A DNA stretch of 64,000 nucleotides from a virus (IMGVR_UViG_3300036828_001020:5180-69179); one strand, 5' to 3'. Positions 9,888 to 32,723 are shown, counted from the stretch's first letter. Numbers and translations are program-made. Notes: generated by a model not told the origin, from the letters alone.

Positions 9888-10487
9888 CTACGCCAATATT
9901 GTTCCGCCGGCGGCGACGATCTGATCGGTCGTCAGGCTGGCCGGCAAGGTCGAGACCTGGCCGGTTTGCGTGGTCGGGGTGTTGAGCTGCGGCAAGGCGA
10001 GATTGTTGATATTGGCGCTGCCGCCGGCGAGCGTCTGGGTCGAGACCAGGATGATCTGGCGCAAGGTGACGTTGGTGAGGAACGTGTGCTCGAGCCCGGA
10101 ATTGGTCTCTGTATGGACCGAGGCGACCAGCATGCTCTGGTAGGCGCGCTTGCCGGTGTAGACGTCAAACGGCTGGCGCGCCGCCTGGAGCTGCAGGATC
10201 TGCTCATAGACCATGCGCGAGTCGCCGATATAGGCGTCCGACCAGCCGACCCGCACACGCACCTCGGAAGGCCGCTTAAAGGCATGATCGGTGATCGCCG
10301 CGCCGTATTCGACCGGGTGCTCGGTGATCGTCAGATCGTCGTCATGGTCCTCGCTGACCGTGACCTCGGCCACCGGCAGGTTGCCGATCCGGCGGTTGGG
10401 GGCTTCCGGGCGACGCCCAATCCCTCCCGAATATTGCGACAGATCGAGAAACGGGAAAAAAACCGCCGTCGGCGGCAGACCGCTCAT
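9888..10487 (-). CDS. Tail tube initiator / Dit-like baseplate protein
   Basis: SEDHDDDLTITEHPVEYGAAITDHAFKRP..PFDVYTGKRAYQSML; follows the tape measure gene. Confidence 0.82.
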   Translation of the reverse strand: MSGLPPTAVFFPFLDLSQYSGGIGRRPEAPNRRIGNLPVAEVTVSEDHDDDLTITEHPVEYGAAITDHAFKRPSEVRVRVGWSDAYIGDSRMVYEQILQLQAARQPFDVYTGKRAYQSMLVASVHTETNSGLEHTFLTNVTLRQIILVSTQTLAGGSANINNLALPQLNTPTTQTGQVSTLPASLTTDQIVAAGGTILA

Positions 10488-15147: not shown

Positions 15148-16635
15148 TTACTGGTTTACAAAAACGACGACTTCGGCGGAATGAATCGCCCCGGCAGTCT
15201 TGGCGGCTATCTGTATTATCGGCGCTTTGCGCGCGGCCCGGTCGGCCGCGGTCTGCAACAGCATCGAGGGGGCGTATATGTAGAAGCCGAGCGATATCGG
15301 ATCGCCTTGCTTTAAGGTGCCAAAGCCCGGCGCGTTCCAGACTCCCGAGGAGAGATAGCCGTTGGCGACATAGCCGGCACAAGTTCGCGTGGCCTCGGTG
15401 ACCAACAGGCTCATGCCGGGATCAGTCTGCGGGATCTTGGTCGGGCTGGTGTACAGCACGTTGAACAGACTGGTTTGCAGATCGAGTGCCAGCGCGTCGG
15501 CGCCGATGATCGTGTCGGTGTATTCGCCCGAGCTCGACACCCCGTATTGGATCAGGGTCGCGCCATTGGCGTAGGGCACATAGACGTTGCAGTTCTTGCC
15601 CTGGATCGTGTCGGCCTGGCCCGAGCTGACGTTCTCCGGCGCCACCCCCGGCTCGTGCTTGTACATCAAGGTTATCGCGGTGTTCTGCCCGGTCCAATTG
15701 GTGGTCAGGATGCGCCCGAGGTAGGACATGATCGCGTAGGGGTTGGTCGTCGAATATTGCACCGCGGTCCGATTGAGCCCGAGGCTCTGCATCACCGAGG
15801 CGATGTCGGTGTGATCGGTGCCAATCAACACCTTGGGCTCGGCTGTCGTCAGCCCGTAATAGTGCGGCGGGTCGGAAGCCTCGCAGTAGAGCCCCAAATC
15901 ATCGTGATCGAGATCGGCCGCCCCCGGGCAGACCACCCCGTAGAACTGGCTCGAATACATCGCATCGATGGCGGCGAGTGCGGCCAGCGGGGTCTCGGTG
16001 GCCTGGCCGGGGGCGGCAATCGCCCCCGATCCCGCGGTCATGCCGAGCATCGCCGAGATGTCGACACCGATCACGGGCGGGGTCAGAAAGCTGATCGATG
16101 AGGTGGGCCCGGTGGTGCCGCTGGTCATCTGAAAGACCGCCTGGTTGGCGTTCCACACCATCGTGCCGCCGGTGACCGCAGTGTCGATGATCGCGGCAAC
16201 GGCGTTGAGATTGGCCGCCCCCGAGAAGTTGAGCGGCCCAATATTGGTCGGGGCGGCCCCATCGAGCGCCACGCGAAAGCTGCCGGTGGTGATCGATCGC
16301 CACAGCGTCATCGACTGCTCGGCGGCCGATAGCGGCCGGCCGATCAGCGCGCCGGCGGCCGGCACGTTGGCCCACCGGCCAATCTCGATATTGTCCGGGC
16401 TGGGCGATTGGGCGAACCACGTCGCGGCCGCCAGATACTCCTGCGCGGTGGTGCCGAAATCGCTCGCCACCTCGCTGATGTTGGCGTAACGGCGCATCCG
16501 CTCGGCGACCGAGATCACCGTCCCGGTGCCGATCACCAGACAGGTGTTGATCGCTGGTGCGATCACCGCCGGCGAGGTCAGCGCGACACTCACCTTGACA
16601 AGCCGAGATGCTGGCAATCCGGTAGTGAGCGGCAT
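15148..16635 (-). CDS. Contractile tail sheath (DUF3383-like)
   Basis: LPASRLVKVSV..DFGTTAQEYLAA..ITLMYKHEPG..TKIPQTD.G..RAARKAP..AGAIH. Confidence 0.92.
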   Translation of the reverse strand: MPLTTGLPASRLVKVSVALTSPAVIAPAINTCLVIGTGTVISVAERMRRYANISEVASDFGTTAQEYLAAATWFAQSPSPDNIEIGRWANVPAAGALIGRPLSAAEQSMTLWRSITTGSFRVALDGAAPTNIGPLNFSGAANLNAVAAIIDTAVTGGTMVWNANQAVFQMTSGTTGPTSSISFLTPPVIGVDISAMLGMTAGSGAIAAPGQATETPLAALAAIDAMYSSQFYGVVCPGAADLDHDDLGLYCEASDPPHYYGLTTAEPKVLIGTDHTDIASVMQSLGLNRTAVQYSTTNPYAIMSYLGRILTTNWTGQNTAITLMYKHEPGVAPENVSSGQADTIQGKNCNVYVPYANGATLIQYGVSSSGEYTDTIIGADALALDLQTSLFNVLYTSPTKIPQTDPGMSLLVTEATRTCAGYVANGYLSSGVWNAPGFGTLKQGDPISLGFYIYAPSMLLQTAADRAARKAPIIQIAAKTAGAIHSAEVVVFVNQ

Positions 16636-16661: not shown

Positions 16662-16874
16662 ATGGATTGCCCGCACTGCCATCGCACCGGGTGGCTGATC
16701 GAGGGGCGGGTGCCCTGTTTTGAATGTCTTGGCGGGATTGCCAGCTGCTGCGATGCAGCCGGCTCGGCGGGCTATTCGGCTGGAGACACCTTGTCGGTGT
16801 CAAAGGATGCGGTGTACGTGCCGGGGTCGGCGGTCACCGTGCCGGCGGCTTCGAGGATATTGAGCACCGGATAG
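16662..16874 (+). CDS. Small antisense zinc-finger-like protein
   Basis: GGAG SD; MDCPHC..PCFECLGGIASCC; the Cys-rich part fills the intergenic gap. Confidence 0.5.
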   Translation: MDCPHCHRTGWLIEGRVPCFECLGGIASCCDAAGSAGYSAGDTLSVSKDAVYVPGSAVTVPAASRILSTG

Positions 16875-17452
16875 ACGCGCTGGATGATGCGGCGCAGCCA
16901 CAGCGGCTTGTCGATGCGATCGAGCCACTGGTTCTTGATAAACTCGGGGGCACGCGTCCCCTCGCCGATCTCGACAAAGGCCATACCCACCGCGGCCAGC
17001 GCCGACTTGTTCTGCCAGATCATCAGCCCGGAATGCAGGTTGGCGGCGTAATAATCGCACTGCGGCCCGTAAAAGCTCGCCAGGACGTCGATGTCCTCGT
17101 GGCGCTGCACCAGGTCATGGCCGTCATTGACCGGATCGTGGATGGTTGCGCCGTAGACGCCGATCGGCCGCTTGCGCACGATGCCGACGGCGCACCAGGT
17201 CACCGAGAAATCGGGCAGGTTGGGCGGCTCGGGCTGGTAGCGCGGGCGCACCAAAGTGCCGTCGAGCCCGGCGACCCCGGCGACAAATTGCTGAATGTAG
17301 TCTTCGAGCGCCGGGCCCTCGAGCTGGAGTGACGTCCAGTAGCCGTGGTCGAGCCCATAGGCGCCGCTCGTGTCGAGAACAAATTGGTCGGTGCGGCCCG
17401 GCTGCAGGTAGCCGGCCTGCGAGGAGTCGCGCGCCTGGTTGGGGATCGTCAT
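16772..17452 (-). CDS. Neck / tail terminator protein
   Basis: GLDGTLVRPRYQPEPP..RHEDIDVLASFYGP; directly upstream of the sheath gene. Confidence 0.8.
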   Translation of the reverse strand: MTIPNQARDSSQAGYLQPGRTDQFVLDTSGAYGLDHGYWTSLQLEGPALEDYIQQFVAGVAGLDGTLVRPRYQPEPPNLPDFSVTWCAVGIVRKRPIGVYGATIHDPVNDGHDLVQRHEDIDVLASFYGPQCDYYAANLHSGLMIWQNKSALAAVGMAFVEIGEGTRAPEFIKNQWLDRIDKPLWLRRIIQRVYPVLNILEAAGTVTADPGTYTASFDTDKVSPAE

Positions 17453-17832
17453 TGCGACGGCGCGTCCTGCGCCAGGGTCGAAGAGAGCTGAGCCTCGACA
17501 AACCCGGCGCCATATTCGCCGAAATCTCTGACCTCAACGACGATATATCGGTTGCCGCGGTAGAGCACGACATCGGGCTGAAAGCCGGGCGAGGCCTGCT
17601 GCAATCGGTACGTGGTCACACAGGTCAGCGTCTTGCGGCCATGCTCATAGTCGCTTTGCCGCACCAAGCGGTTGTCGCCGGTCGGATAAAACGTCCCGTA
17701 CTTGCCGCGAGCGACGACCTGTTCGGTAGCCGAGCGGCCAAACTCGGTGATCGTCTCGGGCCGGCGCAGCACGTCGAAGCGGCTGGCAAACGGATCGCTG
17801 ACCGGGATCGGAGAGACATCGAGGGTCGCCAT
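17449..17832 (-). CDS. Head closure / head-tail adaptor
   Basis: GGAGG SD; LDVS..DPFA..FDVLRR..PDVVLYRGNRY..YGAGFVEA. Confidence 0.75.
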   Translation of the reverse strand: MATLDVSPIPVSDPFASRFDVLRRPETITEFGRSATEQVVARGKYGTFYPTGDNRLVRQSDYEHGRKTLTCVTTYRLQQASPGFQPDVVLYRGNRYIVVEVRDFGEYGAGFVEAQLSSTLAQDAPSQ

Positions 17833-17882
17833 CCGGCACCTCCCTTTTAATGACGGGATAAATATTATTTTGCCCGCGCGGC

Positions 17883-17917
17883 TTGTCAGCAACGGCCCCC
17901 GTTGATAAGGTTACCTT
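17883..17917 (+). promoter_or_regulatory. Sigma70-like promoter overlapped by palindromic operator
   Basis: TTGTCA-N17-TAAGGT with TGn extended -10; palindrome AAGGTTACCTT at 17907-17917. Confidence 0.7.
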
Positions 17918-17959
17918 GGCAAAGCCGGGTTTCCCGGAGCCACGAAAGTGGAGGAGAAG

Positions 17960-18130
17960 ATGATTTTGCCCGTGACCAAGGAGCAGCTCGACGAGATGGA
18001 GCAACAGCCGCTCACCAAGGCCGAGCTCGCGCGGCTGCGGCGCGAGTTCAAGAAGCAGGCCACCTTCTACGCTGATGGGTTGGGTGTGACGATCGAGTGT
18101 CGTGAGAATGATGGCCCAGGTACGCGTTGA
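17960..18130 (+). CDS. Small hypothetical protein
   Basis: GGAGGAG SD; first gene after the promoter. Confidence 0.6.
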   Translation: MILPVTKEQLDEMEQQPLTKAELARLRREFKKQATFYADGLGVTIECRENDGPGTR

Positions 18131-18299
18131 ATGGCACGACGGCCAGCGCCGCCGCGTTGGAACCGCACTCGTCGCCGACGTAGACGCGTATCTTGAGGCC
18201 TCGCACCAGCGCGGCTTCTATCTGATCACCGCGCCGTCTCTGGGTGTCGTGCGGGTGCCGCTGCGCGTCGCTCTGTTCGCCGTCGCTGAGCCAGTATGA
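18111..18299 (+). CDS. Small hypothetical protein
   Basis: Overlaps the previous ORF; MAQVRVEWHDG. Confidence 0.5.
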   Translation: MAQVRVEWHDGQRRRVGTALVADVDAYLEASHQRGFYLITAPSLGVVRVPLRVALFAVAEPV

Positions 18300-18363
18300 T
18301 GCATGAGGACTTCACGCCGCATGATTATCCGGGGATCGCCGTCGCGTGTAACTGGTTCGCAGG

Positions 18364-18939
18364 GTGATCGAGGCGGCGCTGCAGCTGGTCTCGGGGGCGG
18401 CGTCAATAGGGCGCACGATGACTCCGGATTACCGGACATCACGCGCCCTCTCGGCCGCGGCTCTCGGGACCATTGCCGGCGATTTCGGCCTCAAATTCGC
18501 GGCTGACCCGAGGGCGACCCACCTCCTGGTCGGCGCCGCGATGTATACGATCCCGACCGCGCGCACCCTCGCGATCCTGCTCGTTCCCCGCCTCGACCGC
18601 GACCGCGGACCCCGCGTCGCCCTGTGCGCTGCGGCCGGCGTGCTGCAGCTCGTTTTTGCGGTCGGGGCCGACATCGCGGCGACGGCCCCGGTCAATCTTC
18701 TGGCGCTCATCCCCCTGGCGGTCATCGCACTCGCCGCCGTCGGCGACGTGTCAAACGAGATGCGCACCCGGCGCCGGTTCATCTTTGTGATCGGGTGCCT
18801 GTCGGGGATCTTCGCATTTGAAACATCGGCATGGGGGTTGCTGGCAAAGGCCGCGATCTCGGATGTCGCGGCGTCCGTGTGGGTCATGTTGTGGGGACCG
18901 ATCGGCTCCCAGCGGCTTGTCAGAAACCCGCGCCGTTGA
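18364..18939 (+). CDS. Multi-pass membrane protein (distantly YgjV-like)
   Basis: Several hydrophobic segments; AAMY..TARTL and LLALIP..MRTRR patterns. Confidence 0.55.
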   Translation: MIEAALQLVSGAASIGRTMTPDYRTSRALSAAALGTIAGDFGLKFAADPRATHLLVGAAMYTIPTARTLAILLVPRLDRDRGPRVALCAAAGVLQLVFAVGADIAATAPVNLLALIPLAVIALAAVGDVSNEMRTRRRFIFVIGCLSGIFAFETSAWGLLAKAAISDVAASVWVMLWGPIGSQRLVRNPRR

Positions 18940-18951
18940 TAAGGTTACCTT
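18917..18951 (+). promoter_or_regulatory. Second copy of promoter plus operator
   Basis: TTGTCA-N17-TAAGGT; AAGGTTACCTT at 18941-18951; near-identical to the 17.9 kb copy. Confidence 0.7.
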
Positions 18952-18991
18952 GGCAAGCCGGGTTTACCGGAAAGATGCGGAGGTGATCAAA

Positions 18992-19204
18992 ATGGAGACT
19001 TCACGGCCCTTTGCTCGAGCCGCGAACCTTGCCGCCCGGGCCGGGCGCGCAACCGACCCTTGGGAAAGCCGACTCTTGCTCGACGAAGCCAATGAGGAGC
19101 TGGCCCGTGTCAACGCCGCGCTCCATCCGATCAAAGGGGAGGAGACTCGCAAGATACTCATAAACCTGGAGGGAACGTATTATGGCTGGCAAGAGATCCG
19201 GTAA
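18992..19204 (+). CDS. Hypothetical protein
   Basis: Strong GGAGGTGAT SD. Confidence 0.6.
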   Translation: METSRPFARAANLAARAGRATDPWESRLLLDEANEELARVNAALHPIKGEETRKILINLEGTYYGWQEIR

Positions 19205-19553
19205 ACGTCAGCTGCTGACCTCCGCCGCCGTGGGCGTTGGGCTCGTCGGCATCCCGGCGCAGGCGGCGGTGTGGACCGAGGGCGATCGCGTCTACATGCG
19301 CGAAGCCGGAACCACGACCGAGGTCACCGCCACTCCCGAATTGCTTGCCGCCCTACGTGCGGTCGGCGGCAAGGCCAAGCTGCCGAGCGACCCCAAACTG
19401 ATCATGTCGGGGGGCGGGGGTGCCGCTTTTAGTCTCGATCCGTTCGATCTTGTCGGCAAAGTCCGCGATGCATTGATCGGGCAAAAAGAAAAAAAGGGGC
19501 GACCCCAAACTGTGCCAACCAAAGACCCGCCAACCAATGAGGAACACAAATGA
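19182..19553 (+). CDS. Putative exported protein
   Basis: Basic n-region, hydrophobic h-region, AQA cleavage site; IMSGGGGAAFS motif. Confidence 0.65.
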   Translation: MAGKRSGKRQLLTSAAVGVGLVGIPAQAAVWTEGDRVYMREAGTTTEVTATPELLAALRAVGGKAKLPSDPKLIMSGGGGAAFSLDPFDLVGKVRDALIGQKEKKGRPQTVPTKDPPTNEEHK

Positions 19554-19783
19554 ACACAGCCACCTATGCCTTGCCGGGAACTCCGCTTGCCGCACATAGC
19601 GCGGTGATCAAGCGGGCTCTCGATCGCGCCGTCCAGGTGCGGGCTAGTGACATCAACCCTCCCGGAAACTGGATAACCGGCGCCATGCTGCCGCGCATCG
19701 ACGGCAGGATGACCTATGACAAGGACGCCGTGATCCCCGTCAGCGGACCGCGCATGTTGTGGGTCGGCGGCAACGGCCCTTGA
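19550..19783 (+). CDS. Putative peptide precursor (77 aa)
   Basis: GAGG SD, ATGA coupling; leader-like N-half followed by a Pro/Gly/Trp-rich C-half. Confidence 0.6.
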   Translation: MNTATYALPGTPLAAHSAVIKRALDRAVQVRASDINPPGNWITGAMLPRIDGRMTYDKDAVIPVSGPRMLWVGGNGP

Positions 19784-20233
19784 ATGCCGACGACACTCTG
19801 CCCGAGCGCCCGGCCGGTCGACGACATGCCGGGCGGCTTGGCGGTCTTTGCCGTGGCCGCCGGCACGCCAGAAGAACCGAGCGCTGAATACCTGCCCGAG
19901 GCGATCCCGATAACCGCCGCGATGCTGGAAACGATGGCGCGCGGCCCGATCGAGGTCGGCGAGGTGTTTCGTTTCACCAAACAATGTCGCGAAGAAGCCT
20001 GTCGACAATGGGACGAGAAGGCTCATGCGTGCAGCCTGATCGACCGATGGGTTGCGGCACTCGACGTTCCCGCCGAGACCGCTTTGCCGCGTTGCGCTAT
20101 CCGCCAGAATTGTCGGGCATGGCACCAACTCGGAGCGCGGGCCTGCCGCAGTTGTCACCGCGTGACTTCGCAATGGATCACCGGCCTCGATGAGCCTCTT
20201 GCAAAAGTCGACTTGGAAAAACTGTATTTATAG
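19784..20233 (+). CDS. Cys-rich (8 Cys) putative metalloprotein / peptide maturase
   Basis: LCPSA..EVFRF..CREEAC..CSL..LPRCAIRQNCRAW..ACRSC. Confidence 0.7.
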   Translation: MPTTLCPSARPVDDMPGGLAVFAVAAGTPEEPSAEYLPEAIPITAAMLETMARGPIEVGEVFRFTKQCREEACRQWDEKAHACSLIDRWVAALDVPAETALPRCAIRQNCRAWHQLGARACRSCHRVTSQWITGLDEPLAKVDLEKLYL

Positions 20234-21428
20234 AGATCCGCTGCTCGGCAACGGCAGTTATCGCATCTTGCTGTTGACCGGGCTGTTTTGGGGTACCGCG
20301 AGCAGTCAATTGACGTTGCTGGCCGTGGTGTTCCGCCAGCACGGGTTTAGCGACGCGCTAATCGGCTGGACCTTTACCGCGCAATTGGCTGGGCTCGTCG
20401 CCTCGAGCCTATGGAGTGGCTGGCTGATCACCCGCATCGGCGCCACCCTTGTGATGCTCGCTGGTCTGGCGACAGGCCTGATGTCGATGGTCCTGCTGCC
20501 GGTGAGCGGGATTACCCCGGGGCCGACACTCCTACTTAGTCTGATCCGCGGTGTCTCCGGCGGGTTGCTGCTCACGGCCGGTCTTACCCTGGCCCAAAGT
20601 GCCGCGGCCGAAGACGATCGCGTGCGGGCGCTCGGTCTGTTTAACGCATGCTTTCTGCTGCCCGCACTCTATGGCCCAGCACTCGGCGAGTGGACGTTGC
20701 GGGCGTGGGGTGATGCGGGATTTTTTCTGGTTGCCTGCATTCCGGCAGCCATCGGTCTGCTGCTGATGTTGCGCTACCCGCCCAGCGATCGAGCCGCACC
20801 TAGCACGGTTGGATATCTCGCCTTGCTGCGCGATCGCCATATCTGGCTGCCCAGCGTGGCGATGGCGGCCGCCGGGCTCGGCTACATCTTTGCCTATAGC
20901 TTTTTGGCGCTGCTGCTGACCGATGCTTTGCAAACGCCGGTCGCGTGGTTTTTTGTGCCGTTTGCGGCCGGCATGTTTGGTACGCGGTTTTTCGGATTGC
21001 GCCATCTGCAGCGCTTGCCGGCGTGGTTGCTAACGGGCCTCGGGTTGCTCAGTTACGGGGTCGGGTTCGGATGCCTCGCAGCAGCCCCGGCTCACGCTAT
21101 TGTCGTGCCGGCCGTGGCGGGCGCGCTGTTTGGTTTTGCCTATGGGGTGACGGGTCCAGCGGCGACGGCATGGGCCTGCGCCCCTTATCCTGCTGGCGAG
21201 GCGAGCCGGGCCCGGCCAATCGCGCTGACCGGTGCGAGTTTTCAATTGGGCGCGGTCATCTCGGTGCAGGTTGCCGGAGCGCTGTTGCCGATGATTGGTT
21301 GGTCGGGTGTCCTGACGGTCCTCGGCGCCCTGGCCGCCACGGTCTTTCTGGTCGTTATCTACCACGGTGTTTCCGGCATGCGCCGGCGATTTTCGCCGGG
21401 CGCTCTCGACCCCCGACCGGGCGTCTGA
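20190..21428 (+). CDS. MFS transporter
   Basis: 412 aa with about 12 hydrophobic segments; SGWLITRIGAT (motif A-like) and DRVRALG. Confidence 0.88.
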   Translation: MSLLQKSTWKNCIYRDPLLGNGSYRILLLTGLFWGTASSQLTLLAVVFRQHGFSDALIGWTFTAQLAGLVASSLWSGWLITRIGATLVMLAGLATGLMSMVLLPVSGITPGPTLLLSLIRGVSGGLLLTAGLTLAQSAAAEDDRVRALGLFNACFLLPALYGPALGEWTLRAWGDAGFFLVACIPAAIGLLLMLRYPPSDRAAPSTVGYLALLRDRHIWLPSVAMAAAGLGYIFAYSFLALLLTDALQTPVAWFFVPFAAGMFGTRFFGLRHLQRLPAWLLTGLGLLSYGVGFGCLAAAPAHAIVVPAVAGALFGFAYGVTGPAATAWACAPYPAGEASRARPIALTGASFQLGAVISVQVAGALLPMIGWSGVLTVLGALAATVFLVVIYHGVSGMRRRFSPGALDPRPGV

Positions 21429-21545
21429 TCGGCTCGCATCCCCATACGTGCTAAGCTGTCGTCGGCGCCACCCCCCCCGGCGCCAAGCTGGCGCTGCTCC
21501 CGTAGCGGGGAGCGGTGCAGGCGCACCGGCGGCCCCCACCGCCGG

Positions 21546-21561
21546 TGTTTCACGTGAAACA
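21546..21561. other. Perfect bacterial parS site
   Basis: TGTTTCACGTGAAACA, exact 16-bp palindrome, intergenic. Confidence 0.85.
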
Positions 21562-21586
21562 GTGCGCACCAGTTGCGGGGGGCAAC

Positions 21587-22051
21587 ATGCAATACACGAT
21601 GATCCAGGCGGCCAAGGCGGCTGGTCTATCTAAATCGACGGTCACCCGGGCGGTCAAAAGCGGTAGGCTTTCCGCCACCCAGAACGAGCTCGGCGTGATG
21701 GTGATCGATGCCGCGGAACTCCATCGGGTCTATCCGCCAGTGACGCAGCGCAATGGTGCAGACGAGGAGCCGCCTGGTGCAGCCGGGCGAATTTGGACCG
21801 GTGCGCACCAGGTCGATCCCGCCCTCGAAGCCCTGTTGCGCGAGAGATCAGAGCGCATCGCCGAACTCAGTGCGCGCCTCGAGGAGCAAGACGCGACGAT
21901 TCGGGCCGAGCGCACCGTGACCGCCGAGACGATCCACGATTTGCGAGCCCGGCTGGATGCCGAGCAGGCCGAACGCCGCGAGCTGACGCTGACCTTGCGG
22001 ATGATCGGAGCCCCCGCCAAGCGGCGCTGGTGGCGCCTCTGGCGCCCCTAA
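21587..22051 (+). CDS. HTH plus coiled-coil protein (plasmid-type)
   Basis: QAAKAAGLSKSTVTRAVKSGRLSA..IDAAELHRVYP; coiled coil; RRWWRLW tail. Confidence 0.75.
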   Translation: MQYTMIQAAKAAGLSKSTVTRAVKSGRLSATQNELGVMVIDAAELHRVYPPVTQRNGADEEPPGAAGRIWTGAHQVDPALEALLRERSERIAELSARLEEQDATIRAERTVTAETIHDLRARLDAEQAERRELTLTLRMIGAPAKRRWWRLWRP

Positions 22052-22542
22052 CCCTCGTCGCGGATTACCCAGGTAATCGAGCGCAGCAGCGCTCCTGTGT
22101 CGATCAGCGGCGTCGCATCGGCCGGGGTCATCGCTTTGCGCCGGTAGCTGCTCCCCGGCGTGCGGCGTCGTCTTCGGGCCACTGTAGCGGGCGCCAGGGG
22201 CGGTGGGATGCCGGCCTGGATCGTCGCCTGCACCGAGTTGACAGCGATGATGCCGGCGCGGCCCAAGGCGGTGTCGACCGCCGCCAAGTCGCCGGCAAAC
22301 GCGGCTTGCCCGGCCTTGCGCAATTCCGCCGAGATCGCCGGCATCGCGGCCTGGACCCCAGGGGTCAGAAACGGCCGGGCAGGGATATTGCGCGCCGGCG
22401 AGCCAAATTCGTGGATATACCCCAAGGCGGCATTGCCGATCGGGTCGCCCGAACGCGGGTTCTTTTCTTGCGGAATGCCGATCAGCAGCCGCTTGCGGGC
22501 GAGCGCCTCGATTGCGCGGGCAATGTCGTCAGGACCCGGCAC
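22048..22542 (-). CDS. Neck / virion morphogenesis protein
   Basis: LGYIHEFGSP..IPARPFL..PPLAPAT..PLIDTG.L; probable GTG start at 22542. Confidence 0.8.
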   Translation of the reverse strand: MPGPDDIARAIEALARKRLLIGIPQEKNPRSGDPIGNAALGYIHEFGSPARNIPARPFLTPGVQAAMPAISAELRKAGQAAFAGDLAAVDTALGRAGIIAVNSVQATIQAGIPPPLAPATVARRRRRTPGSSYRRKAMTPADATPLIDTGALLRSITWVIRDEG

Positions 22543-22652
22543 AGCAGCGCCTGCCGATCGGGTGCCTGCGCCGGCGGCGCCCCCGGATGATCCGCCGCCG
22601 CAGCGCTGACCGGCGGCCGCGCAGCCGCCCCCCTCTTTGGCGCAACCTGGGC

Positions 22653-23195
22653 TCAGAGAGCACGATACGCCAGCCCGGATGTGCCATAGGGGTAATATTT
22701 GAGCCCCGAGACCCCGTAGAATGGGCGATAGCGGAAGAGGCGATATTGCGCGGTGGCCTGCCAGAAGCTGAGGCCATATTGGGTCTGCGCATACCATGCG
22801 GCACTCGCCGGCAGACCGTCGAGCCCGCCATACCCGACGCTGACCGGGCCCACCGCCTTGTTGGTCATGCGGCCAGGCGTCCCGGCCCCGGTGCCCGGCG
22901 GGCCGCCGATCTGGGCCAGGTGCGCGGTCATCATGTAGAGCAAGCGCTCGCGCTCGCCGCCGACCGAGGCGTCACAGACCGGGCTCGAGCAGCTGTTATC
23001 CAGGTAGATTGTCGCGTCGTAGAACAGCTCCTGTGCCAGTGCGGGTGAGACGGTGATCGTCCCCGACCCGGCAAATTCCGAGTAACGCGTGCTCCACCGG
23101 CCATAGTCGAATTGCACAACGCAATCGTCGACCGGCGGCACCGGGATCAGCGGCGGGCACTGGCACGGGGTGCAGCCACAGGCGCAGGTGCTCAC
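22653..23195 (-). CDS. Head-tail connector (DUF4054-like)
   Basis: RERLLYMMTAHLA..GPVSV..WYAQTQYGLSFWQATAQYR. Confidence 0.85.
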   Translation of the reverse strand: MSTCACGCTPCQCPPLIPVPPVDDCVVQFDYGRWSTRYSEFAGSGTITVSPALAQELFYDATIYLDNSCSSPVCDASVGGERERLLYMMTAHLAQIGGPPGTGAGTPGRMTNKAVGPVSVGYGGLDGLPASAAWYAQTQYGLSFWQATAQYRLFRYRPFYGVSGLKYYPYGTSGLAYRAL

Positions 23196-23661: not shown

Positions 23662-24771
23662 CTAGATCCCGAGCATCGAAGAGATCGCCATCGGCATGCG
23701 GATTATCGCACCCCAGGTGCCACCGACGATCTTCTGCTTGAACGAGCTCATCGCCCGGATGATCGGATGCGACCGCATCTTCTCATTAAACGCGCAATAT
23801 CCAGTGTCCTGCCCCTCGACGCGCTCGGCGATGAGCTGGATCAGGTTGCCGACGGTGCCATTGCCCTGCGGGTTTTGCGGTGACCGTATGGCGTATTGCA
23901 CAGCCGTTTCGATGCGCAGATTAGCGAATTCGTCCTCGATCATCTTGCGGGCGATCAGACCAAATTGGTTGACAAACCCGAGCGCCACGGCACTCGCCGG
24001 ATCGAGCGCCAGACACATCGGGGTTTCGCGATCGACCAGCCCCGCGGTTTGTTTTACCAGCTGACTAAACAACGCCAGGATGTCGTTATAGACCTCGTTG
24101 GCGGTCGCGTTGGGCGCCCCGGTCGGGGTGAACCACGCATTGGCATTGCCGCCCGCTTTGGTCGTCGGGGTCAGCGACGCGCTCAATGCTGGATCGTTGA
24201 GCAAACCGTAGTTCTGCAATCCGGCTAGCCCAAAGAAATACGTCAGGTTGCTGAATTTGTTGAGCACCAAGGCGGCTGCCTGATCGAGCTCACTTACCCA
24301 GTTGATCCGCCCGAGCCCGGCGCGCTCGAGTTCCAGATCGCCGTATTCTTTAGTCGTCTGAAACAGGTAGCTTTGGCGTTGGGGCCAATTTGTATTGGCT
24401 CCACTGTGCCCGCCTTCGTTGTAATCGCCGTAGGTCGTGACCTCGCCGACATGCTCGACGACCGGGAACATGATCGTCTGGTCGAGCCAGGTGCCTTTGC
24501 GCACCTCGCCAAAAATCACCGCCGCCTTGTTTGGAGCGAACAAGATCTTGTAGACCGCCGGGTCGGTCAGCAGGGTGAGCATGAAAGGCACCGCCGAGTT
24601 GATCCCGGTGGTCAACGCCGGCATCGCATCACGCGCCATCCGATAATCGTGTTTGAACTCCTCCGGCACATAGCTGGTCGGCGGGTCCATGCCTTCGGCA
24701 AATGAGACGCCGAGCGCCTCAAACCGCGCCCGGTCAGCCTGCCAGGCCGTCCGTGCTTCCATCAAATTCAT
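23662..24771 (-). CDS. Major capsid protein (DUF2184 / Bcep781-like)
   Basis: GEVRKGTW..GEVTTYGDY..RQSYLFQT..YFFGLAGLQNYGLLNDP..EKMRSH..GTWGAIIR. Confidence 0.92.
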   Translation of the reverse strand: MNLMEARTAWQADRARFEALGVSFAEGMDPPTSYVPEEFKHDYRMARDAMPALTTGINSAVPFMLTLLTDPAVYKILFAPNKAAVIFGEVRKGTWLDQTIMFPVVEHVGEVTTYGDYNEGGHSGANTNWPQRQSYLFQTTKEYGDLELERAGLGRINWVSELDQAAALVLNKFSNLTYFFGLAGLQNYGLLNDPALSASLTPTTKAGGNANAWFTPTGAPNATANEVYNDILALFSQLVKQTAGLVDRETPMCLALDPASAVALGFVNQFGLIARKMIEDEFANLRIETAVQYAIRSPQNPQGNGTVGNLIQLIAERVEGQDTGYCAFNEKMRSHPIIRAMSSFKQKIVGGTWGAIIRMPMAISSMLGI

Positions 24772-25832: not shown

Positions 25833-27479
25833 TTAAACTTGCCGAATGTGTTTGGTTTCGGGGAAGCGCTCGGCAAAGGATTTGAGCGCCGCGGCATCCA
25901 TCGCTACTGGGGCTGATCCCAGCTGTGGAGCGCCGGCTTTGGGCTGGACCGCCAGCAATGCTGGATAGGCGCTCGGATGAATCGCCGCCGGGTCGACCCC
26001 GCGCATGCGCAGCGCCTGGGCGTAGACCTGATCCTTGCTGTCAAAGGCTTGGGTCAGCTCGCCGACATAAGGGAAGACCTCGCGCTCGGCCTCGCGGATT
26101 TCCCGTTGCGTGCGCGCCGCAGCGATTTGTGCCGCGCGGACCGCAGCGGCGATCGCCGCATCCATCGCGCCCTTGGTCACCAGGTCAGGTTGTGGGTTTT
26201 TAGTCTCGTCGGCGCTCGGGATGATCGAACGCCTATCCTGTGCGTCCCAGGCCGCATCGGCCGCCTCGTCGTCGTCCTCGCGTTTCTTCTTTTCTTCATC
26301 GGTCTCGTCACGGCCCAGCCGGCGCGCCGCGTCGCGAGCACGGATCGCTTTGATGTCCTGCGCTTTCTCCTCCGGGGGACAGTCTGGGTCCTGATCCTGG
26401 TTGCCCATCGGTACCGCACTGTTCGGCGGCAGCATCGGCGGTTCATCAACAATCCCGCCATTCCCGGTGCCGGCCAGCACCGTTTCGATCAGCGGCAGGA
26501 TTTCGTCGATATCGGCGTCCTGGGCGATCCGCTTGCCGGTCAGCGCCCGTTTGAGGGCGTCCTTCATGCTCATGTTAATCACCTCCGGTTGCATGGGTGG
26601 TTTGGCGTCGCCGATCACGACATCGTGGCCGGCACGGCCCTCGGCGACAGCGGCCACATGGTTGCCGACGATGTTCGTCATGATTCCGTCGTAGCGCTGG
26701 CCCTCGTAGACGCCCGGCGTCATCACCGGCTGGTAGCGATAGGCGCAGCTGAGCTCACGCTTCTCGCCGCTCTCGATCGCGTCGATCGCCGCTTGCGGCC
26801 AGAACACCAGCGAGTTTTTCAGGTATGGCGGCTCAAACCGGGCGTGCGTGCCGGTCGAGCCGATCACCAGTTCGGGCGGATGATCCTGCGCGCTGATCGG
26901 CACGTGCTCGCTGAGGATCGGCAGATTGTTAAAAGTCGCGGTCCCCTTGGCGATCTCGTCGGGGTGGCGCAGCAGCTGATAGGTCTTTTCCGGATCGAGC
27001 CCGAGGCTTTCCCAATCGGGGATCTCCTCGCCTTTGTAGGGGTTGACCGTGGCCTTGCTGATATTCGCCTCCTCGACGTGCAGCCGGCCGTCGGCGTCCT
27101 TTGAGCGCACCGAGTTCCGGTCGAGTGCCATGTCGTTGGCGGCGGTCAATTCGCGGGTCAGCAGCGGTCGGCTGCCCTCGGCATCGCAGTCCGCGTCTGC
27201 GCTGTGCTCCTCCTCGCCGCCTTCCTCGCCGACCCAGGCGAGCAGACCGCGCAGGAAGTTTTTGAGGGTGTCTAAAAAGGCCCCGGTGGTTTGGTCGTGG
27301 CCCTCGCCAACACTCTCGACAAACTCTTTACCGACCGACTGCGGAATGCCGAGCGTGGAGTGCCCGCTTGCCGCGGCATGCATCGCGCGGCGCTGCGGCT
27401 CCGAGGTCGGCGGATCGGTGGCGAGTTCATTATCGCCGCCGGCGCCAACCCCGGAAATCGGCCCTCCCACCTCTGGCAT
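25833..27479 (-). CDS. Prohead protease / scaffold (DUF2213-like)
   Basis: DGRLHV..ISKATVNPY.G.EIP..KRELSCAYRY..GNHVA.V.EGRAG. Confidence 0.9.
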   Translation of the reverse strand: MPEVGGPISGVGAGGDNELATDPPTSEPQRRAMHAAASGHSTLGIPQSVGKEFVESVGEGHDQTTGAFLDTLKNFLRGLLAWVGEEGGEEEHSADADCDAEGSRPLLTRELTAANDMALDRNSVRSKDADGRLHVEEANISKATVNPYKGEEIPDWESLGLDPEKTYQLLRHPDEIAKGTATFNNLPILSEHVPISAQDHPPELVIGSTGTHARFEPPYLKNSLVFWPQAAIDAIESGEKRELSCAYRYQPVMTPGVYEGQRYDGIMTNIVGNHVAAVAEGRAGHDVVIGDAKPPMQPEVINMSMKDALKRALTGKRIAQDADIDEILPLIETVLAGTGNGGIVDEPPMLPPNSAVPMGNQDQDPDCPPEEKAQDIKAIRARDAARRLGRDETDEEKKKREDDDEAADAAWDAQDRRSIIPSADETKNPQPDLVTKGAMDAAIAAAVRAAQIAAARTQREIREAEREVFPYVGELTQAFDSKDQVYAQALRMRGVDPAAIHPSAYPALLAVQPKAGAPQLGSAPVAMDAAALKSFAERFPETKHIRQV

Positions 27480-31061: not shown

Positions 31062-32723
31062 TCACACCCCGCTGCGCGCGGCCCTGCGGGTTTCGGCCCG
31101 GCCGGCAAGCGGATCGCGGCCACCACTGCCGGACGGCGAGGCGACCGAGGTAACGGTCTGGCCCTGCTGCGGCCCGCCGCCGGCGGGACGCGGTGGCCCG
31201 CCCAGCCGCTCGCTCGGCGCCATCGGCGGCGGTGGCGGCGGCTCGGGCAAGTCGTCGGGGTCGAGCTCCAGCCCTGCATACGGGCTCTCGGGGTCGGTCG
31301 CCAATACCTGGCGCACCTCCTGGTTGGAGATCGCACCCATCTGCTCGTATTGATCGTGAATGTCGGCCTTGGTCTTTTGCACCGCTGCTTGTCCGGCCTC
31401 GTCGAGCTGCCACAGCGATTTGAAATCAAACGTGATGTCGGGATCGACCCGGCCAAACAACGAGAGTTGGACAAAGTCGATGACCCGGGTCAGCGGCTCG
31501 CGAAACAGCTTGTTCTGAACGGCTCTGATCCAGTCATAGAAAGATCTAATTTCCCCTTCGCTGCTGGCATTGAGACCTGACGGGGTAAGTCCGGTATATT
31601 TAATAAGTGGAAGGCCAGAAATCGAGCAGATGTGCTCTTGACTTTGCGCCTGCAGCGCCTCGAGACCACCCAACGGTGTCGAGATGTTCTGAAACTCTTC
31701 GGTATCCTTGTTGAGGATCAACAGCCCTCGGTTGTCGCGGAAAAAATTGTAGAGATCGGCGCGGTTCTCGACGATTGGCTGGCCGCCCCGGTTCAGCATC
31801 GCGGTCAGATCGGTCAGCATCACGCTGGTCGAGAACGAGCGGATCAGATCGGCGACCGAGTCGCGGGTCTGCACCCATTTGTCGATGTAGGGCTTGGCCA
31901 TCTGCGACAGCGGCAGACCACCAAACATATAGGCGGGCTTTAACAGATCCCGGACCGGGCGCCCGACCAGGGTCAGCAGTCGCGTGGCGTGGATCTGCTT
32001 ACCCATGACAAACCAGCTTTGCGGCTTGTACCAATCGGCGCGCAGCGGGTCAGAGCTGTTGTAATCGATCGGATAGGTCCACACCGGCTCGACGGTGCGC
32101 ACCGCCTTTAGACCGCCCTTGCGGACCTTGGCGAGCGAAGTCTCGTCGCGGCCATGGCCGATCGAGGTCTTCAGCTCGTTGGGGTTATCAGTGGTGCCGA
32201 GATCAAGGTAGAGGTGCCCGCGGCCAAAAAAACAGTCGAGCTCGGCCAACTCATTACATGCATCCTGCACGCCAAGTCGTTTGAGCTCGTCATAGATCGC
32301 GTTGATTTCGAGGGTCTTGTCCTTGTCGCTTGAGCTTTTGAGCTCGATCCACTCGCGGGTCATCTCCGAGGCCATGACTTCCGCGAGACGCCGGTACTCG
32401 CCGCGCTGCGCCAGCTCGGACAGCACCGGATAGCCGAGAAAGCTCAGCCCATCGGTATAGTAGACGGCGAGCAATTGCTCGGCCGCCCAATTGGTCGCGG
32501 AACCGAGATTGCTGTCCATCGCCATCGTGGAACGGTCCGGCGGCACGACCCCGGGCATTGGCGGCTTGACCGCAAAGGTCGGCTGTCGCGGTTTGCCGCT
32601 CGGTATCTCGCCGCGCCGGCCGGCATTGTGCAGTGCCGTGGCAAAGTCGATCACCGCAGCCGCTACACCCCGACGTTTGCGTGGCGGCGAGGGGCCGCCG
32701 GGCGGCATGTTGACGACAGTCAC
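31062..32723 (-). CDS. Portal protein (DUF1073-like)
   Basis: FLGYPVLSELAQRGEYR..EMTREWI..GLTPSGLNASSEGEIRSFYD. Confidence 0.92.
   Translation of the reverse strand: MTVVNMPPGGPSPPRKRRGVAAAVIDFATALHNAGRRGEIPSGKPRQPTFAVKPPMPGVVPPDRSTMAMDSNLGSATNWAAEQLLAVYYTDGLSFLGYPVLSELAQRGEYRRLAEVMASEMTREWIELKSSSDKDKTLEINAIYDELKRLGVQDACNELAELDCFFGRGHLYLDLGTTDNPNELKTSIGHGRDETSLAKVRKGGLKAVRTVEPVWTYPIDYNSSDPLRADWYKPQSWFVMGKQIHATRLLTLVGRPVRDLLKPAYMFGGLPLSQMAKPYIDKWVQTRDSVADLIRSFSTSVMLTDLTAMLNRGGQPIVENRADLYNFFRDNRGLLILNKDTEEFQNISTPLGGLEALQAQSQEHICSISGLPLIKYTGLTPSGLNASSEGEIRSFYDWIRAVQNKLFREPLTRVIDFVQLSLFGRVDPDITFDFKSLWQLDEAGQAAVQKTKADIHDQYEQMGAISNQEVRQVLATDPESPYAGLELDPDDLPEPPPPPPMAPSERLGGPPRPAGGGPQQGQTVTSVASPSGSGGRDPLAGRAETRRAARSGV

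What the first reader, a model, noticed from the sequence alone, without database searches (positions are those of the whole stretch)
18992..21428. Phage-borne putative peptide (RiPP-like) biosynthesis and export cluster
Seen: five overlapping or abutting plus-strand genes inserted in the neck operon with their own promoter: a 70 aa ORF, an exported protein, a 77 aa peptide (leader-like LPGTPLAAHSAVIKRALDRAVQVRASDI, then two Pro/Gly/Trp segments PPGNWITGAM and GPRMLWVGGNGP), an 8-Cys protein and an MFS transporter. A membrane protein lies just upstream. Established: precursor plus maturase plus exporter is standard RiPP layout. Inference: the Cys-rich protein resembles no maturase class I know, so this may be new chemistry or a phage signalling/bacteriocin system. 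My recollection that this peptide/Cys-rich pair recurs in bacterial genomes is unverified.
Basis: partly seen in the sequence, partly recalled or inferred. Interest (0 to 1): 0.75.

Follow-up and report, generated by a model that had tools for sequence, protein, structure and literature searches.

The report
Phage peptide plus eight-cysteine partner
A soil phage carries an inserted gene block whose core is a small protein gene coupled to a gene for an eight-cysteine protein of a widespread but unnamed bacterial family, next to a membrane exporter; relatives of this pair sit beside genuine peptide-antibiotic precursors, so it may be an undescribed peptide-maturation system.

Summary
Comparison with 10 related phage loci shows that the + strand block 17893-22047 is an insertion specific to this phage.

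Only three insert genes recur elsewhere: the 77-aa gene, the 149-aa 8-Cys gene and, in one locus, the MFS gene.

The 8-Cys protein belongs to a large unnamed family: 620 cluster representatives at E<=1e-3. It has no Pfam, NCBIfam or PDB-sequence match. All eight Cys are conserved: seven invariant, C6 nearly so.

In 16 of 17 loci examined, the family gene lies next to a co-oriented small ORF. These small ORFs are too diverged to align with each other. In Nostoc the small ORF is an NHLP-leader RiPP precursor. In Spirosoma it has a double-glycine leader and lies beside NHLP-type peptidase/ABC exporters.

Against it: the window peptide matches no known leader family, is conserved at both ends, and has no protease gene nearby. 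Most relatives have no exporter.

No + strand sigma-70-like promoter was found. A 57-nt repeat precedes two of the ORFs.

The parts
17878..17934 (+). Copy 1 of a 57-nt direct repeat, in the intergenic region at the left edge of the insert, upstream of the 60-aa ORF
   Evidence: the repeat finder family D1. The 22-nt core has 2 matches in the window and 0 expected. Sequence read.
17948..18130 (+). 60-aa ORF of unknown function; first gene of the insert
   Evidence: ORF list. Codon-position GC 0.64/0.38/0.79 looks coding. No Pfam, PHROG or PADLOC hit.
18364..18939 (+). 191-aa membrane protein with 3 TM-like segments; not conserved with the pair elsewhere
   Evidence: GC3 0.82. No family hit. No tblastn hit in 16 other loci.
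18912..18968 (+). Copy 2 of the 57-nt repeat. It spans the end of the 191-aa gene and lies just upstream of the ribosome-binding site and ATG of the 70-aa ORF. Candidate promoter/operator or recombination scar.
   Evidence: No Rfam match. The two copies do not share a fold.
18992..19204 (+). 70-aa ORF; coding status uncertain
   Evidence: Good ribosome-binding site. Codon-position GC is ambiguous, and the antisense 63-aa ORF scores alike. No homologue or family.
19182..19553 (+). 123-aa protein with a signal-peptide-like N-terminus and a Gly-rich motif; only weakly linked to the pair
   Evidence: Weak BLASTP match (E 2e-4, 21/57) to the 120-aa ORF downstream of the pair in L008. Not recovered by tblastn at E<=1e-2.
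19550..19783 (+). 77-aa Cys-free small protein, the partner or candidate precursor. Conserved motifs at residues 37-49 and 66-77; relaxed segment at residues 50-65.
   Evidence: Homologues P0005, P0006, L002 and L008. dN/dS 0.29-0.31. 4-nt overlap with the upstream gene and abuts the downstream gene.
19784..20233 (+). 149-aa eight-cysteine protein, member of a large unnamed family
   Evidence: 620 representatives at E<=1e-3. Seven Cys invariant and C6 nearly so, plus invariant R63 and R107, in 60 sequences. dN/dS 0.08-0.18. No Pfam, NCBIfam, PDB or PADLOC match.
20190..21428 (+). 412-aa MFS transporter, presumed exporter
   Evidence: PF07690 E 7e-24, phrog_2034 E 4e-29. 38% identical over its full length to the MFS that follows the pair in L002. 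8 TM-like segments by a crude scan.
21515..22051 (+). HTH protein with a coiled-coil tail (likely start at ATG 21587); last gene of the insert, convergent with Neck1
   Evidence: Sub-threshold HTH_17 hit, E 8e-4. Sequence. Absent from 10 related phage loci.
22048..22797 (-). Neck1/tail-completion gene; right flank of the insert
   Evidence: phrog_222 E 1e-39. Used to find related phages.
17449..17892 (-). Head protein (phrog_939); left flank of the insert. The true start is probably the ATG near 17832.
   Evidence: phrog_939 E 2.5e-13, aligned from residue 24. Adjacent to Neck1 in related phages.

Best explanation
The region is a 4.2-kb accessory insertion (moron) on the opposite strand of the head-neck-tail operon of a myovirus-like soil phage.

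Its functional core is a translationally coupled pair followed by an MFS transporter. The pair is a 77-aa Cys-free protein and a 149-aa protein whose eight cysteines are conserved across the family (seven invariant, one nearly so).

Proposed mechanism (inferred, not shown): the 8-Cys protein is a metal-binding protein (Fe-S or Zn). It binds the small protein through the helix and the hydrophobic Pro...Gly strand motif, and modifies or processes it. The MFS transporter then exports the product as a bacteriocin-like or signalling peptide made by infected or lysogenised cells. This would be a RiPP-like system with an undescribed maturase family.

Shown:
- The insertion.
- The conservation and purifying selection of the pair.
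- The family-wide adjacency to small ORFs.
- The presence of bona fide RiPP leaders and exporters in two distant relatives.

Inferred:
- Binding, metal content, modification and export.
For: 1. Insertion. 0 of 10 related phage loci carry any insert gene, and Neck1 and the next structural gene are adjacent in 9 of 10. GC3 of the pair and the MFS is 0.69-0.77, against 0.76-0.87 for the flanking structural genes.

2. Real, linked genes. The peptide and 8-Cys genes are adjacent in L002 (13-nt gap) and overlap by 4 nt in L008. DNA similarity between window and L002 covers exactly these two genes (19564-20227, 75%). dN/dS is 0.29-0.31 and 0.08-0.18.

3. An MFS follows the pair in both window and L002 (38% identity, E 1e-74).

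4. Family-wide pairing. An adjacent co-oriented small ORF is present in 16 of 17 loci from Pseudomonadota, Cyanobacteriota, Bacteroidota and Actinomycetota. Six are annotated CDS in RefSeq plasmids. Nine fall in four groups conserved between independent loci. Gaps are mostly 40 nt or less, or 4-nt overlaps.

5. The partners are too diverged to align, while the 8-Cys protein is conserved. This is the usual picture for a precursor and its enzyme.

6. The Nostoc partner is an NHLP-leader precursor (TIGR03793, E 3.6e-32) with a Gly-Gly site and a short core. The Spirosoma partner has a double-glycine leader and lies downstream of two NHLP-type bacteriocin ABC exporters, one with a peptidase domain.

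7. A loose motif, Pro then hydrophobic-hydrophobic-Gly-hydrophobic-hydrophobic, occurs in 6 of 10 independent partner groups. The rate is 4.9% in shuffles and 3.3% in 731 control ORFs. The motif was defined post hoc.
Against: - The window peptide matches no leader family: NCBIfam, Pfam and PHROGs give 0 hits.
- It has no Cys, Ser or Thr-rich core.
- In its clade both termini are conserved and only residues about 50-65 are relaxed.
- There is no protease or peptidase-transporter in the insert.
- Most relatives (for example L006, L007, L015, L018, L019, L020, L022) are bare two-gene modules with no exporter nearby.
- Some family members have long N-terminal extensions. One (P0053) looks like a partner fused to the 8-Cys domain, which would fit a stable complex better than an enzyme and a released product. 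That similarity is weak (E 0.05).
- MFS divergence (38%) is much greater than that of the pair (72-82%) between window and L002, so the transporter may not be co-inherited with the pair.
- The motif test is post hoc.
- No structural model of usable quality was obtained (pLDDT 38.5).
- One of 17 loci (L021) shows no partner.
Confidence: 0.4

Rival explanations
1. The small protein and the 8-Cys protein are two subunits of a stable intracellular metalloprotein, for example a redox or sensor module. Nothing is modified or exported, and the MFS and other insert genes are unrelated cargo.
For: - Most family loci are bare two-gene modules without an exporter or protease.
- The window-clade small protein is under purifying selection along most of its length and is conserved at both ends.
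- A possible natural fusion of a partner-like N-terminus to the 8-Cys domain exists in P0053.
- The MFS is far more diverged than the pair.
Against: - Subunits of a stable complex usually stay alignable. Here the partners from different groups are not alignable at all, while the 8-Cys protein is 30-47% identical across the family.
- The Nostoc and Spirosoma partners carry export or cleavage leaders, and Spirosoma has dedicated exporters.
- Streptomyces partners start with signal-peptide-like segments.
- The fusion evidence is weak (E 0.05).
Confidence: 0.28
2. The small protein is the precursor of a communication peptide, and the module is a phage or mobile-element signalling system. The 8-Cys protein is a processing or sensing component and the HTH protein is the responder.
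For: - In two Streptomyces plasmids, the small secreted-looking peptide that precedes the 8-Cys gene directly follows a large HTH-domain regulator gene. A papain-like or C1 peptidase lies nearby. This layout recalls receptor-peptide quorum systems (recalled, not tested).
- The phage insert ends with an HTH protein.
Against: - The window has no TPR-type receptor; the HTH hit is sub-threshold.
- The window peptide has no signal sequence.
- At 77 aa with two conserved motifs, it is unlike known short phage signalling peptides (recalled).
- The HTH gene is not found next to the pair in L002 or L008.
Confidence: 0.1
3. The 8-Cys protein is a zinc-finger-type regulator or an immunity or chaperone protein for the small protein, which would itself be the active toxin or membrane-active factor. 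There is no enzymatic chemistry.
For: - Eight conserved Cys in about 120 residues could form two Zn(Cys)4 sites (inference).
- Family genes lie on plasmids and islands, as conflict systems often do.
Against: - No match to any DNA-binding or defence family in Pfam, NCBIfam or PADLOC.
- The small proteins are not hydrophobic or toxin-like by inspection.
- The regulator reading does not explain the NHLP and double-glycine leaders.
Confidence: 0.12
4. The short ORFs are chance open frames in GC-rich DNA, and only the MFS is a real gene.
For: - GC-rich DNA yields many spurious ORFs: 86 ORFs of 40 aa or more in 7.5 kb.
- The 70-aa ORF has ambiguous coding statistics and no homologue.
Against: - The 77-aa and 149-aa genes have homologues with dN/dS of 0.08-0.31.
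- The 8-Cys family has 620 representatives.
- The rival can hold only for the 70-aa ORF and perhaps the 60-aa ORF.
Confidence: 0.02

Closest known systems
NHLP / Nif11-leader RiPP systems with peptidase-containing ABC exporters (Haft et al. 2010, PMC2887384; passages read)
   Same: In Nostoc sp. C057 plasmid p057_G, an NHLP-leader precursor lies 167 nt upstream of a homologue of the 8-Cys protein. In Spirosoma oryzicola, a double-glycine-leader peptide and the 8-Cys homologue follow two NHLP-type bacteriocin ABC exporter genes. The layout is a small precursor, an adjacent accessory protein and an exporter.
   Different: The window peptide has no NHLP, Nif11 or double-glycine leader match. The exporter is an MFS without a peptidase domain. 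No cyclodehydratase, LanM or radical-SAM enzyme is present. A term search of the 2010 paper found no Cys-rich partner protein.
Phage- or prophage-borne bacteriocin gene clusters (Dragos et al., bioRxiv 10.1101/2020.10.01.322628; abstract and section headings read). Sublancin appears only in a methods heading there; SPbeta as the phage that carries it is recalled.
   Same: A mobile virus carries a peptide-plus-exporter cassette as accessory cargo that could arm the host against competitors.
   Different: The preprint's abstract says phage clusters sit predominantly in temperate phages and nearly all encode bacteriocins. Here no integrase or resolvase was found in the 69-kb record. The host is probably an alphaproteobacterium (inferred from the closest homologue). 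The accessory protein belongs to no known bacteriocin or RiPP family.
RiPPs whose variable core lies between conserved N- and C-terminal recognition sequences, such as cyanobactin precursors (recalled; not tested)
   Same: In the 77-aa protein, the most relaxed segment (residues 50-65) lies between two constrained segments (residues 37-49 and 66-77).
   Different: No cyanobactin protease or heterocyclase is present. The evidence comes from short segments in two pairwise comparisons only.
Auxiliary Fe-S (SPASM/twitch) or ferredoxin-like Cys-rich domains of RiPP maturases (recalled)
   Same: Eight conserved Cys in about 120 residues, ending in a C-x2-C-P element in most family members, could hold two clusters.
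   Different: The spacing (C-x4-C-x9-C ... C-x5-C-x10-C-x2-C) matches no model in Pfam or NCBIfam. There is no radical-SAM core. Metal content is unknown.

Membership tests
RiPP biosynthetic gene cluster (generic definition) | A short precursor gene adjacent to, and co-transcribed with, the modifying-enzyme gene | tested here: met
   The 77-aa gene abuts the 149-aa gene. The same adjacency is seen in L002 and L008 and in 16 of 17 family loci.
RiPP biosynthetic gene cluster (generic definition) | A precursor with a recognisable leader family (NHLP, Nif11, double-glycine and others) | tested here: not met
   The window peptide and its L002 homologue give 0 NCBIfam families at E<=1 and 0 Pfam or PHROG hits. 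The feature is met only in the distant Nostoc relative (TIGR03793, 3.6e-32), and by inspection in Spirosoma.
RiPP biosynthetic gene cluster (generic definition) | A modifying enzyme of a known RiPP class | tested here: not met
   The 8-Cys protein has no Pfam, NCBIfam, PHROG or PADLOC hit. The best PDB-sequence E-value is 0.15. A search of named Atlas clusters gave no usable hit.
RiPP biosynthetic gene cluster (generic definition) | Conserved leader and variable core among homologous precursors | tested here: inconclusive
   With 4 sequences, the N-terminal half and the C-terminal 12 residues are conserved. Residues about 50-65 are relaxed: dN 0.34-1.0 against 0.12-0.13 at residues 66-77.
RiPP biosynthetic gene cluster (generic definition) | A leader peptidase or peptidase-containing exporter | tested here: not met
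   The insert has only an MFS. No peptidase family was found among the 8 insert proteins.
RiPP biosynthetic gene cluster (generic definition) | A demonstrated post-translational modification of the peptide | not testable with these tools
   This needs co-expression and mass spectrometry.
Unnamed 8-Cys family (some members labelled 'nitrogen fixation protein' by sources) | Significant profile match plus the eight conserved Cys and two invariant Arg | tested here: met
   620 representatives at E<=1e-3 and 126 at E<=1e-10. C68, C73, C83, C104, C110, C121, C124, R63 and R107 are invariant and C6 nearly invariant in 60 sequences.
Major facilitator superfamily (PF07690 MFS_1) | A profile match above the gathering score and multiple TM helices | tested here: met
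   84.8 bits against a cut-off of 33.4. 8 TM-like segments by a crude hydropathy scan.
Receptor-peptide phage communication systems (arbitrium / RRNPP type) | A TPR-type intracellular receptor with an HTH, next to a short secreted propeptide | tested here: not met
   The only HTH protein has a sub-threshold HTH_17 hit and no TPR. The 77-aa protein has no signal-like hydrophobic segment.
Phage moron (accessory insertion in a structural operon) | Absent from syntenic relatives, opposite orientation, deviating composition | tested here: met
   0 of 10 related loci carry the insert genes. The insert is on the + strand inside a minus-strand operon. GC3 is lower than in the flanks.

The most novel reading that the evidence does not exclude
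The 8-Cys proteins are the maturases, or obligate peptide-binding metallo-partners, of an undescribed RiPP class. Some sources currently mislabel them 'nitrogen fixation protein'. They would act on a short Pro...hydrophobic-Gly-hydrophobic segment presented by very different leaders (NHLP, double-glycine, or the helical type seen here). A phage has captured one such pair with an MFS exporter to make its host secrete a weapon or a signal.
Probability: 0.3. Interest if true: 0.85.

Novelty: new variant of a known kind. Interest (0 to 1): 0.62.

Why it matters
If the 8-Cys family is a peptide-modifying or peptide-binding metalloprotein, several hundred sequence clusters across at least four bacterial phyla would gain a function. 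RiPP genome mining would gain a new handle that does not depend on known enzyme classes.

The Nostoc and Spirosoma loci offer clean test cases, because leader, cleavage site and core can be read from the sequence.

A virion-type phage genome carrying such a cassette inside its neck operon would also be an unusual case of phage-borne secondary metabolism outside the Firmicutes prophages. A section heading of the Dragos et al. preprint states that biosynthetic clusters are extremely rare in virion-derived genomes.

If instead the pair is a plain two-subunit metalloprotein, the finding is still a new, widely distributed family of unknown role, but of modest interest.

Tried and rejected
**Structure and complex prediction**
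- With the 3-sequence alignment the model was unusable (mean pLDDT 38.5), so no fold search was run on it.
- Complex prediction for the peptide and 8-Cys protein was unavailable.

**Similarity searches that found nothing**
- DNA search of the insert against the phage collection: no match.
- Viral-contig scans with the 8-Cys alignment, the peptide alignment and the 22-nt repeat core: no relatives.
- Metagenome scan with the 8-Cys alignment: none.
- The 60-sequence alignment was too diverse for the search for related loci.
- PDB sequence search: nothing below E 0.15.
- PADLOC: nothing for the pair.
- Rfam: nothing in 17400-22400.

**Wasted genome searches**
- Three further class-level genome searches were centred on genomes that turned out to be in the same class, apparently with the same sample.

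**Sequencing runs**
- Only one DNA run was listed, probably the source sample, and no RNA holder was listed.

**Literature**
- Four searches found no description of this pair: NHLP + RiPP + cysteine-rich + uncharacterized; NHLP/Nif11/precursor/conserved cysteines; DUF7005; RiPP + precursor peptide + cysteine-rich protein + genome mining.
- One search was mis-formed.
- No supplementary files were consulted. The phage-cluster tables of the Dragos preprint and the RiPP family tables of PMC11118758 could bear on novelty.

**Rejected or unproven ideas**
- The partners share a detectable common ancestor: phmmer finds similarity only within four groups.
- The 123-aa protein is a conserved member of the module: there is only a weak pairwise hit to L008.
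- The repeat is a structured RNA: the two copies fold differently.
- The phage is demonstrably temperate: no integrase or resolvase was found, but the record is only 93% complete.
Full report
**What is there**

The window is most of a 69,179-bp IMG/VR virus record, rated 93% complete. PHROG and Pfam hits show a myovirus-like structural module on the minus strand:
- large terminase 32720-34111
- portal 31062-32723
- head protease 25833-27479
- major head protein 23662-24771
- DUF4054 protein 22653-23195
- Neck1 22048-22797
- head protein phrog_939 17449-17892
- tail terminator 16772-17452
- sheath 15148-16635
- tape measure 10484-13474
- baseplate and fibre genes

Between Neck1 and the phrog_939 gene lie 4155 nt of + strand ORFs:
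- 60 aa, 17948-18130
- 191 aa with three TM-like segments, 18364-18939
- 70 aa, 18992-19204
- 123 aa with a signal-peptide-like start, 19182-19553
- 77 aa, 19550-19783
- 149 aa with exactly eight Cys, 19784-20233
- a 412-aa MFS transporter, 20190-21428 (PF07690, E 7e-24)
- an HTH protein, 21515-22051

**It is an insertion**

I used Neck1 to fetch 10 related phage loci and ran tblastn with 15 window proteins against them.
- In 7 of 10, Neck1 and the phrog_939 head gene are 0-670 nt apart.
- In 2 of 10, the head gene was not detected but the tail terminator follows within 1.1 kb.
- One locus is cut off.
- None of the 10 has a hit to any of the eight insert proteins.

One relative (L028) has a different 2.3-kb gap, between the head gene and the terminator, so this neck region seems to accept cargo. 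GC3 of the pair and the MFS (0.69-0.77) is lower than that of the flanking structural genes (0.76-0.87).

No integrase or resolvase was found in the record, so lysogeny is not established.

**Promoter claim**

The consensus scan found no + strand sigma-70-like site in 17400-22400, and Rfam found nothing.

There is a 57-nt direct repeat (17878-17934 and 18912-18968, 82% identical). Its 22-nt core is exact in both copies, occurs nowhere else in the window (0 expected by chance) and was not found in the viral collection. Each copy lies just upstream of a ribosome-binding site and an ATG, those of the 60-aa and 70-aa ORFs. The two copies do not share an RNA fold.

It may be a promoter or operator, or a recombination scar that separates two cassettes. 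I could not decide between these.

**Which genes belong together**

A word-indexed search of 5.8 billion proteins found only two relatives of the 8-Cys protein (80% and 72% identity) and two of the peptide (61% and 58%).

One genome locus was recovered: L002, an uncultured Alphaproteobacteria MAG. There the peptide gene, the 8-Cys gene and an MFS gene follow each other on one strand.
- DNA similarity to the window covers exactly the first two genes (19564-20227, 75%).
- The MFS proteins are 38% identical over their full length.
- The neighbours are ordinary chromosomal genes.
- The 2.6-kb island lies between 469-bp direct repeats (93% identical) that duplicate the 5' end of a MetE-like gene.

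On the 1757-bp metagenome contig L008, the peptide gene overlaps the 8-Cys gene by 4 nt. It is followed by a 120-aa ORF that shares only a weak Gly-rich motif with the window's 123-aa protein (BLASTP E 2e-4).

tblastn of all insert proteins against 16 other loci recovered only the peptide, the 8-Cys protein and the L002 MFS.

Pairwise dN/dS is 0.29-0.31 for the peptide gene and 0.08-0.18 for the 8-Cys gene. Both are therefore real genes under purifying selection. The 60-aa, 70-aa, 123-aa, 191-aa and HTH genes are not demonstrably part of the conserved module. The 70-aa ORF may not be a gene.

**The 8-Cys protein is a member of a large unnamed family**

A profile search of 1.84 billion cluster representatives gave 620 proteins at E<=1e-3, 126 at E<=1e-10 and 2 at E<=1e-30.

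I aligned 60 sequences: the three close ones plus 57 of the 66 rows P0007-P0072. I dropped nine short or partial rows by eye. R63, C68, C73, C83, C104, R107, C110, C121 and C124 are invariant, and C6-P7-S8 are nearly so.

None of the 60 matches the family's region in Pfam or NCBIfam. There was one unrelated hit in each library. A PDB sequence search gave nothing below E 0.15.

The ESM Atlas holds a fairly confident model of this very protein (pTM 0.74). Its only structural neighbours (TM 0.77-0.78) are unnamed clusters, some automatically called 'nitrogen fixation protein'. No named cluster was near. One NCBI record (Iningainema tapete) carries that name. I found no basis for the label.

The family is rare. 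It was found in 3 of 401 sampled genomes of the MAG's class and 5 of 401 of its phylum, each count including the MAG itself. It was found on 10-12 plasmid records.

**Family-wide pairing with small ORFs**

I examined 17 loci:
- the window, L002 and L008
- five genome loci (L006, L007, L019, L020, L021)
- eight distinct plasmid loci (L012-L015, L017, L018, L022, L023)
- one record filed as a bacteriophage, whose genes look bacterial (L016)

In 16 of them a small co-oriented ORF (45-165 aa) lies directly beside the family gene. It is upstream in 13 and downstream in 3 (L018, L019, L022). The gaps are mostly 40 nt or less, or 4-nt overlaps. L021 shows none.

Support for these being genes:
- Six are annotated CDS in RefSeq plasmids.
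- Nine fall into four groups conserved between independent loci: window/L002/L008, L006/L015, L007/L020 and L014/L017.
- The remaining ones rest on adjacency alone.

Between groups the small proteins are not alignable (phmmer E>0.001), and they have no Pfam or NCBIfam family.

By eye many share an amphipathic helix followed by a Pro-containing hydrophobic strand with a central Gly. A regular expression for that strand matches 6 of 10 independent groups, against 4.9% of shuffles and 3.3% of 731 control ORFs. I wrote the expression after seeing the sequences, so this is only suggestive.

The second (residues 66-77) is the most constrained part of the peptide.

**Link to ribosomal peptide natural products**

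- In Nostoc sp. C057 plasmid p057_G, the upstream ORF is an NHLP-leader RiPP precursor (TIGR03793, E 3.6e-32). It ends in a Gly-Gly site and a 14-residue core containing the motif. The region also holds TOMM and Nif11/radical-SAM systems on the other strand.
- In Spirosoma oryzicola, the 76-aa upstream ORF has a double-glycine leader by inspection, with only a weak model hit (E 0.12). It follows two genes annotated as NHLP-family bacteriocin export ABC transporters, one with a peptidase domain, and a DUF7005 protein.
- In three Streptomyces plasmids (L014, L017, L023) the small ORF ends in Cys. In the two whose sequence I read in full (L014, L017) it begins with a signal-like segment. In two (L014, L023) it follows a large HTH regulator gene and lies near a papain-like or C1 peptidase.

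These contexts make a processed, exported peptide the most economical reading of the pair.

**What argues against a RiPP reading**

- The window peptide has no known leader, no cleavage motif with a matching peptidase, and no Cys.
- Within its clade both ends are conserved.
- Many relatives are bare two-gene modules.
- Some family members have N-terminal extensions. One (P0053) looks like a partner domain fused to the 8-Cys domain. That would suit a stable complex, but the similarity is weak (E 0.05).
- The transporter is much more diverged than the pair between window and L002.

**Mechanism and odds**

I take it as very likely (about 0.85) that the peptide and the 8-Cys protein work together.

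| Reading | Confidence |
|---|---|
| RiPP-like: a metal-binding protein recognises the helix and Pro...Gly strand of the small protein, modifies or processes it, and the MFS exports the product | about 0.4 |
| Stable two-subunit intracellular metalloprotein | about 0.28 |
| Regulator, immunity or chaperone role for the 8-Cys protein | about 0.12 |
| Signalling system | about 0.1 |

Fe-S versus Zn, the chemistry and the exported species are all untested.

**Comparison with what is known, and novelty**

The layout resembles NHLP/Nif11-type RiPP systems (PMC2887384, passages read) and phage-borne bacteriocin clusters (Dragos et al., abstract and section headings read).

It fails the membership tests for any known RiPP class: no leader family, no known enzyme class and no peptidase. 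Four literature searches found no description of the pair. No supplementary files were consulted.

I rate it a new variant of a known kind, with moderate to high interest. The boldest reading, a new RiPP class defined by this 8-Cys family and captured by a phage, has a probability of about 0.3.

Noticed in passing
window 17878-17934 and 18912-18968: A 57-nt direct repeat with an exact 22-nt core. Each copy precedes a ribosome-binding site and ATG. The second copy includes the last codons of the 191-aa gene, and the first copy follows a short ORF ending in similar residues. This suggests the insert was built from two cassettes joined at this element.
   Followed up: partly
L002 6702-7169 and 9756-10222: In the Alphaproteobacteria MAG, the peptide/8-Cys/MFS island (plus a divergent 111-aa ORF) lies between 469-bp direct repeats, 93% identical. 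The repeats duplicate the 5' end of a MetE-like gene, so the module looks mobile outside phages too.
   Followed up: partly
window 20170-20200 (C-terminal tail of the 149-aa protein) versus window 19667-19680 (peptide motif): The C-terminal tail of the 8-Cys protein contains the same four-residue string (W-I-T-G) as the peptide's first motif. The tail motif is kept in L002 and L008. It may be a pseudo-substrate or a strand-pairing element.
   Followed up: no
L028 2896-5178: A related phage has a different 2.3-kb gap, between the phrog_939 head gene and the tail terminator. The neck region of this phage group therefore seems to be a hot spot for accessory insertions.
   Followed up: no
L014 3371-5399 and L023 2569-4501: In two Streptomyces plasmids the order is a large HTH regulator gene, a small ORF ending in Cys (signal-like start in L014) and the 8-Cys gene, with a papain-like or C1 peptidase nearby. 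This recalls receptor-peptide signalling cassettes.
   Followed up: partly
L015 5962-9271 and L016 2266-4206: M28-type (and M20) peptidase genes lie next to the pair on the opposite strand, by annotation in the Agrobacterium vitis plasmid and by my inspection of the ORF translation in the MT836289 record. They are possible processing enzymes, or a coincidence.
   Followed up: no
L016 (MT836289.1): This record is filed as 'UNVERIFIED: Bacteriophage sp.' from a faecal sample. Around the family gene it carries GC-rich, bacterial-looking genes (a peptidase and a MarR-like regulator) and no evident phage genes in the 9.6 kb read.
   Followed up: no
window 8572-9180: A + strand gene with endonuclease VII and HNH-like PHROG hits lies inside the minus-strand baseplate/tail region. 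It is another opposite-strand insertion in the structural module.
   Followed up: no
protein P0053 (259 aa), residues 1-110: The N-terminal extension of this family member carries two copies of the partner-type hydrophobic Gly strand and a helix like those of the L006 and L015 partners. It may be a natural partner/8-Cys fusion. BLASTP support is weak (E 0.05).
   Followed up: partly
L013 3475-4629: A DUF7005 protein (E 2e-124) lies between the NHLP-type exporters and the peptide/8-Cys pair in Spirosoma. No paper in the searched library mentions DUF7005.
   Followed up: partly
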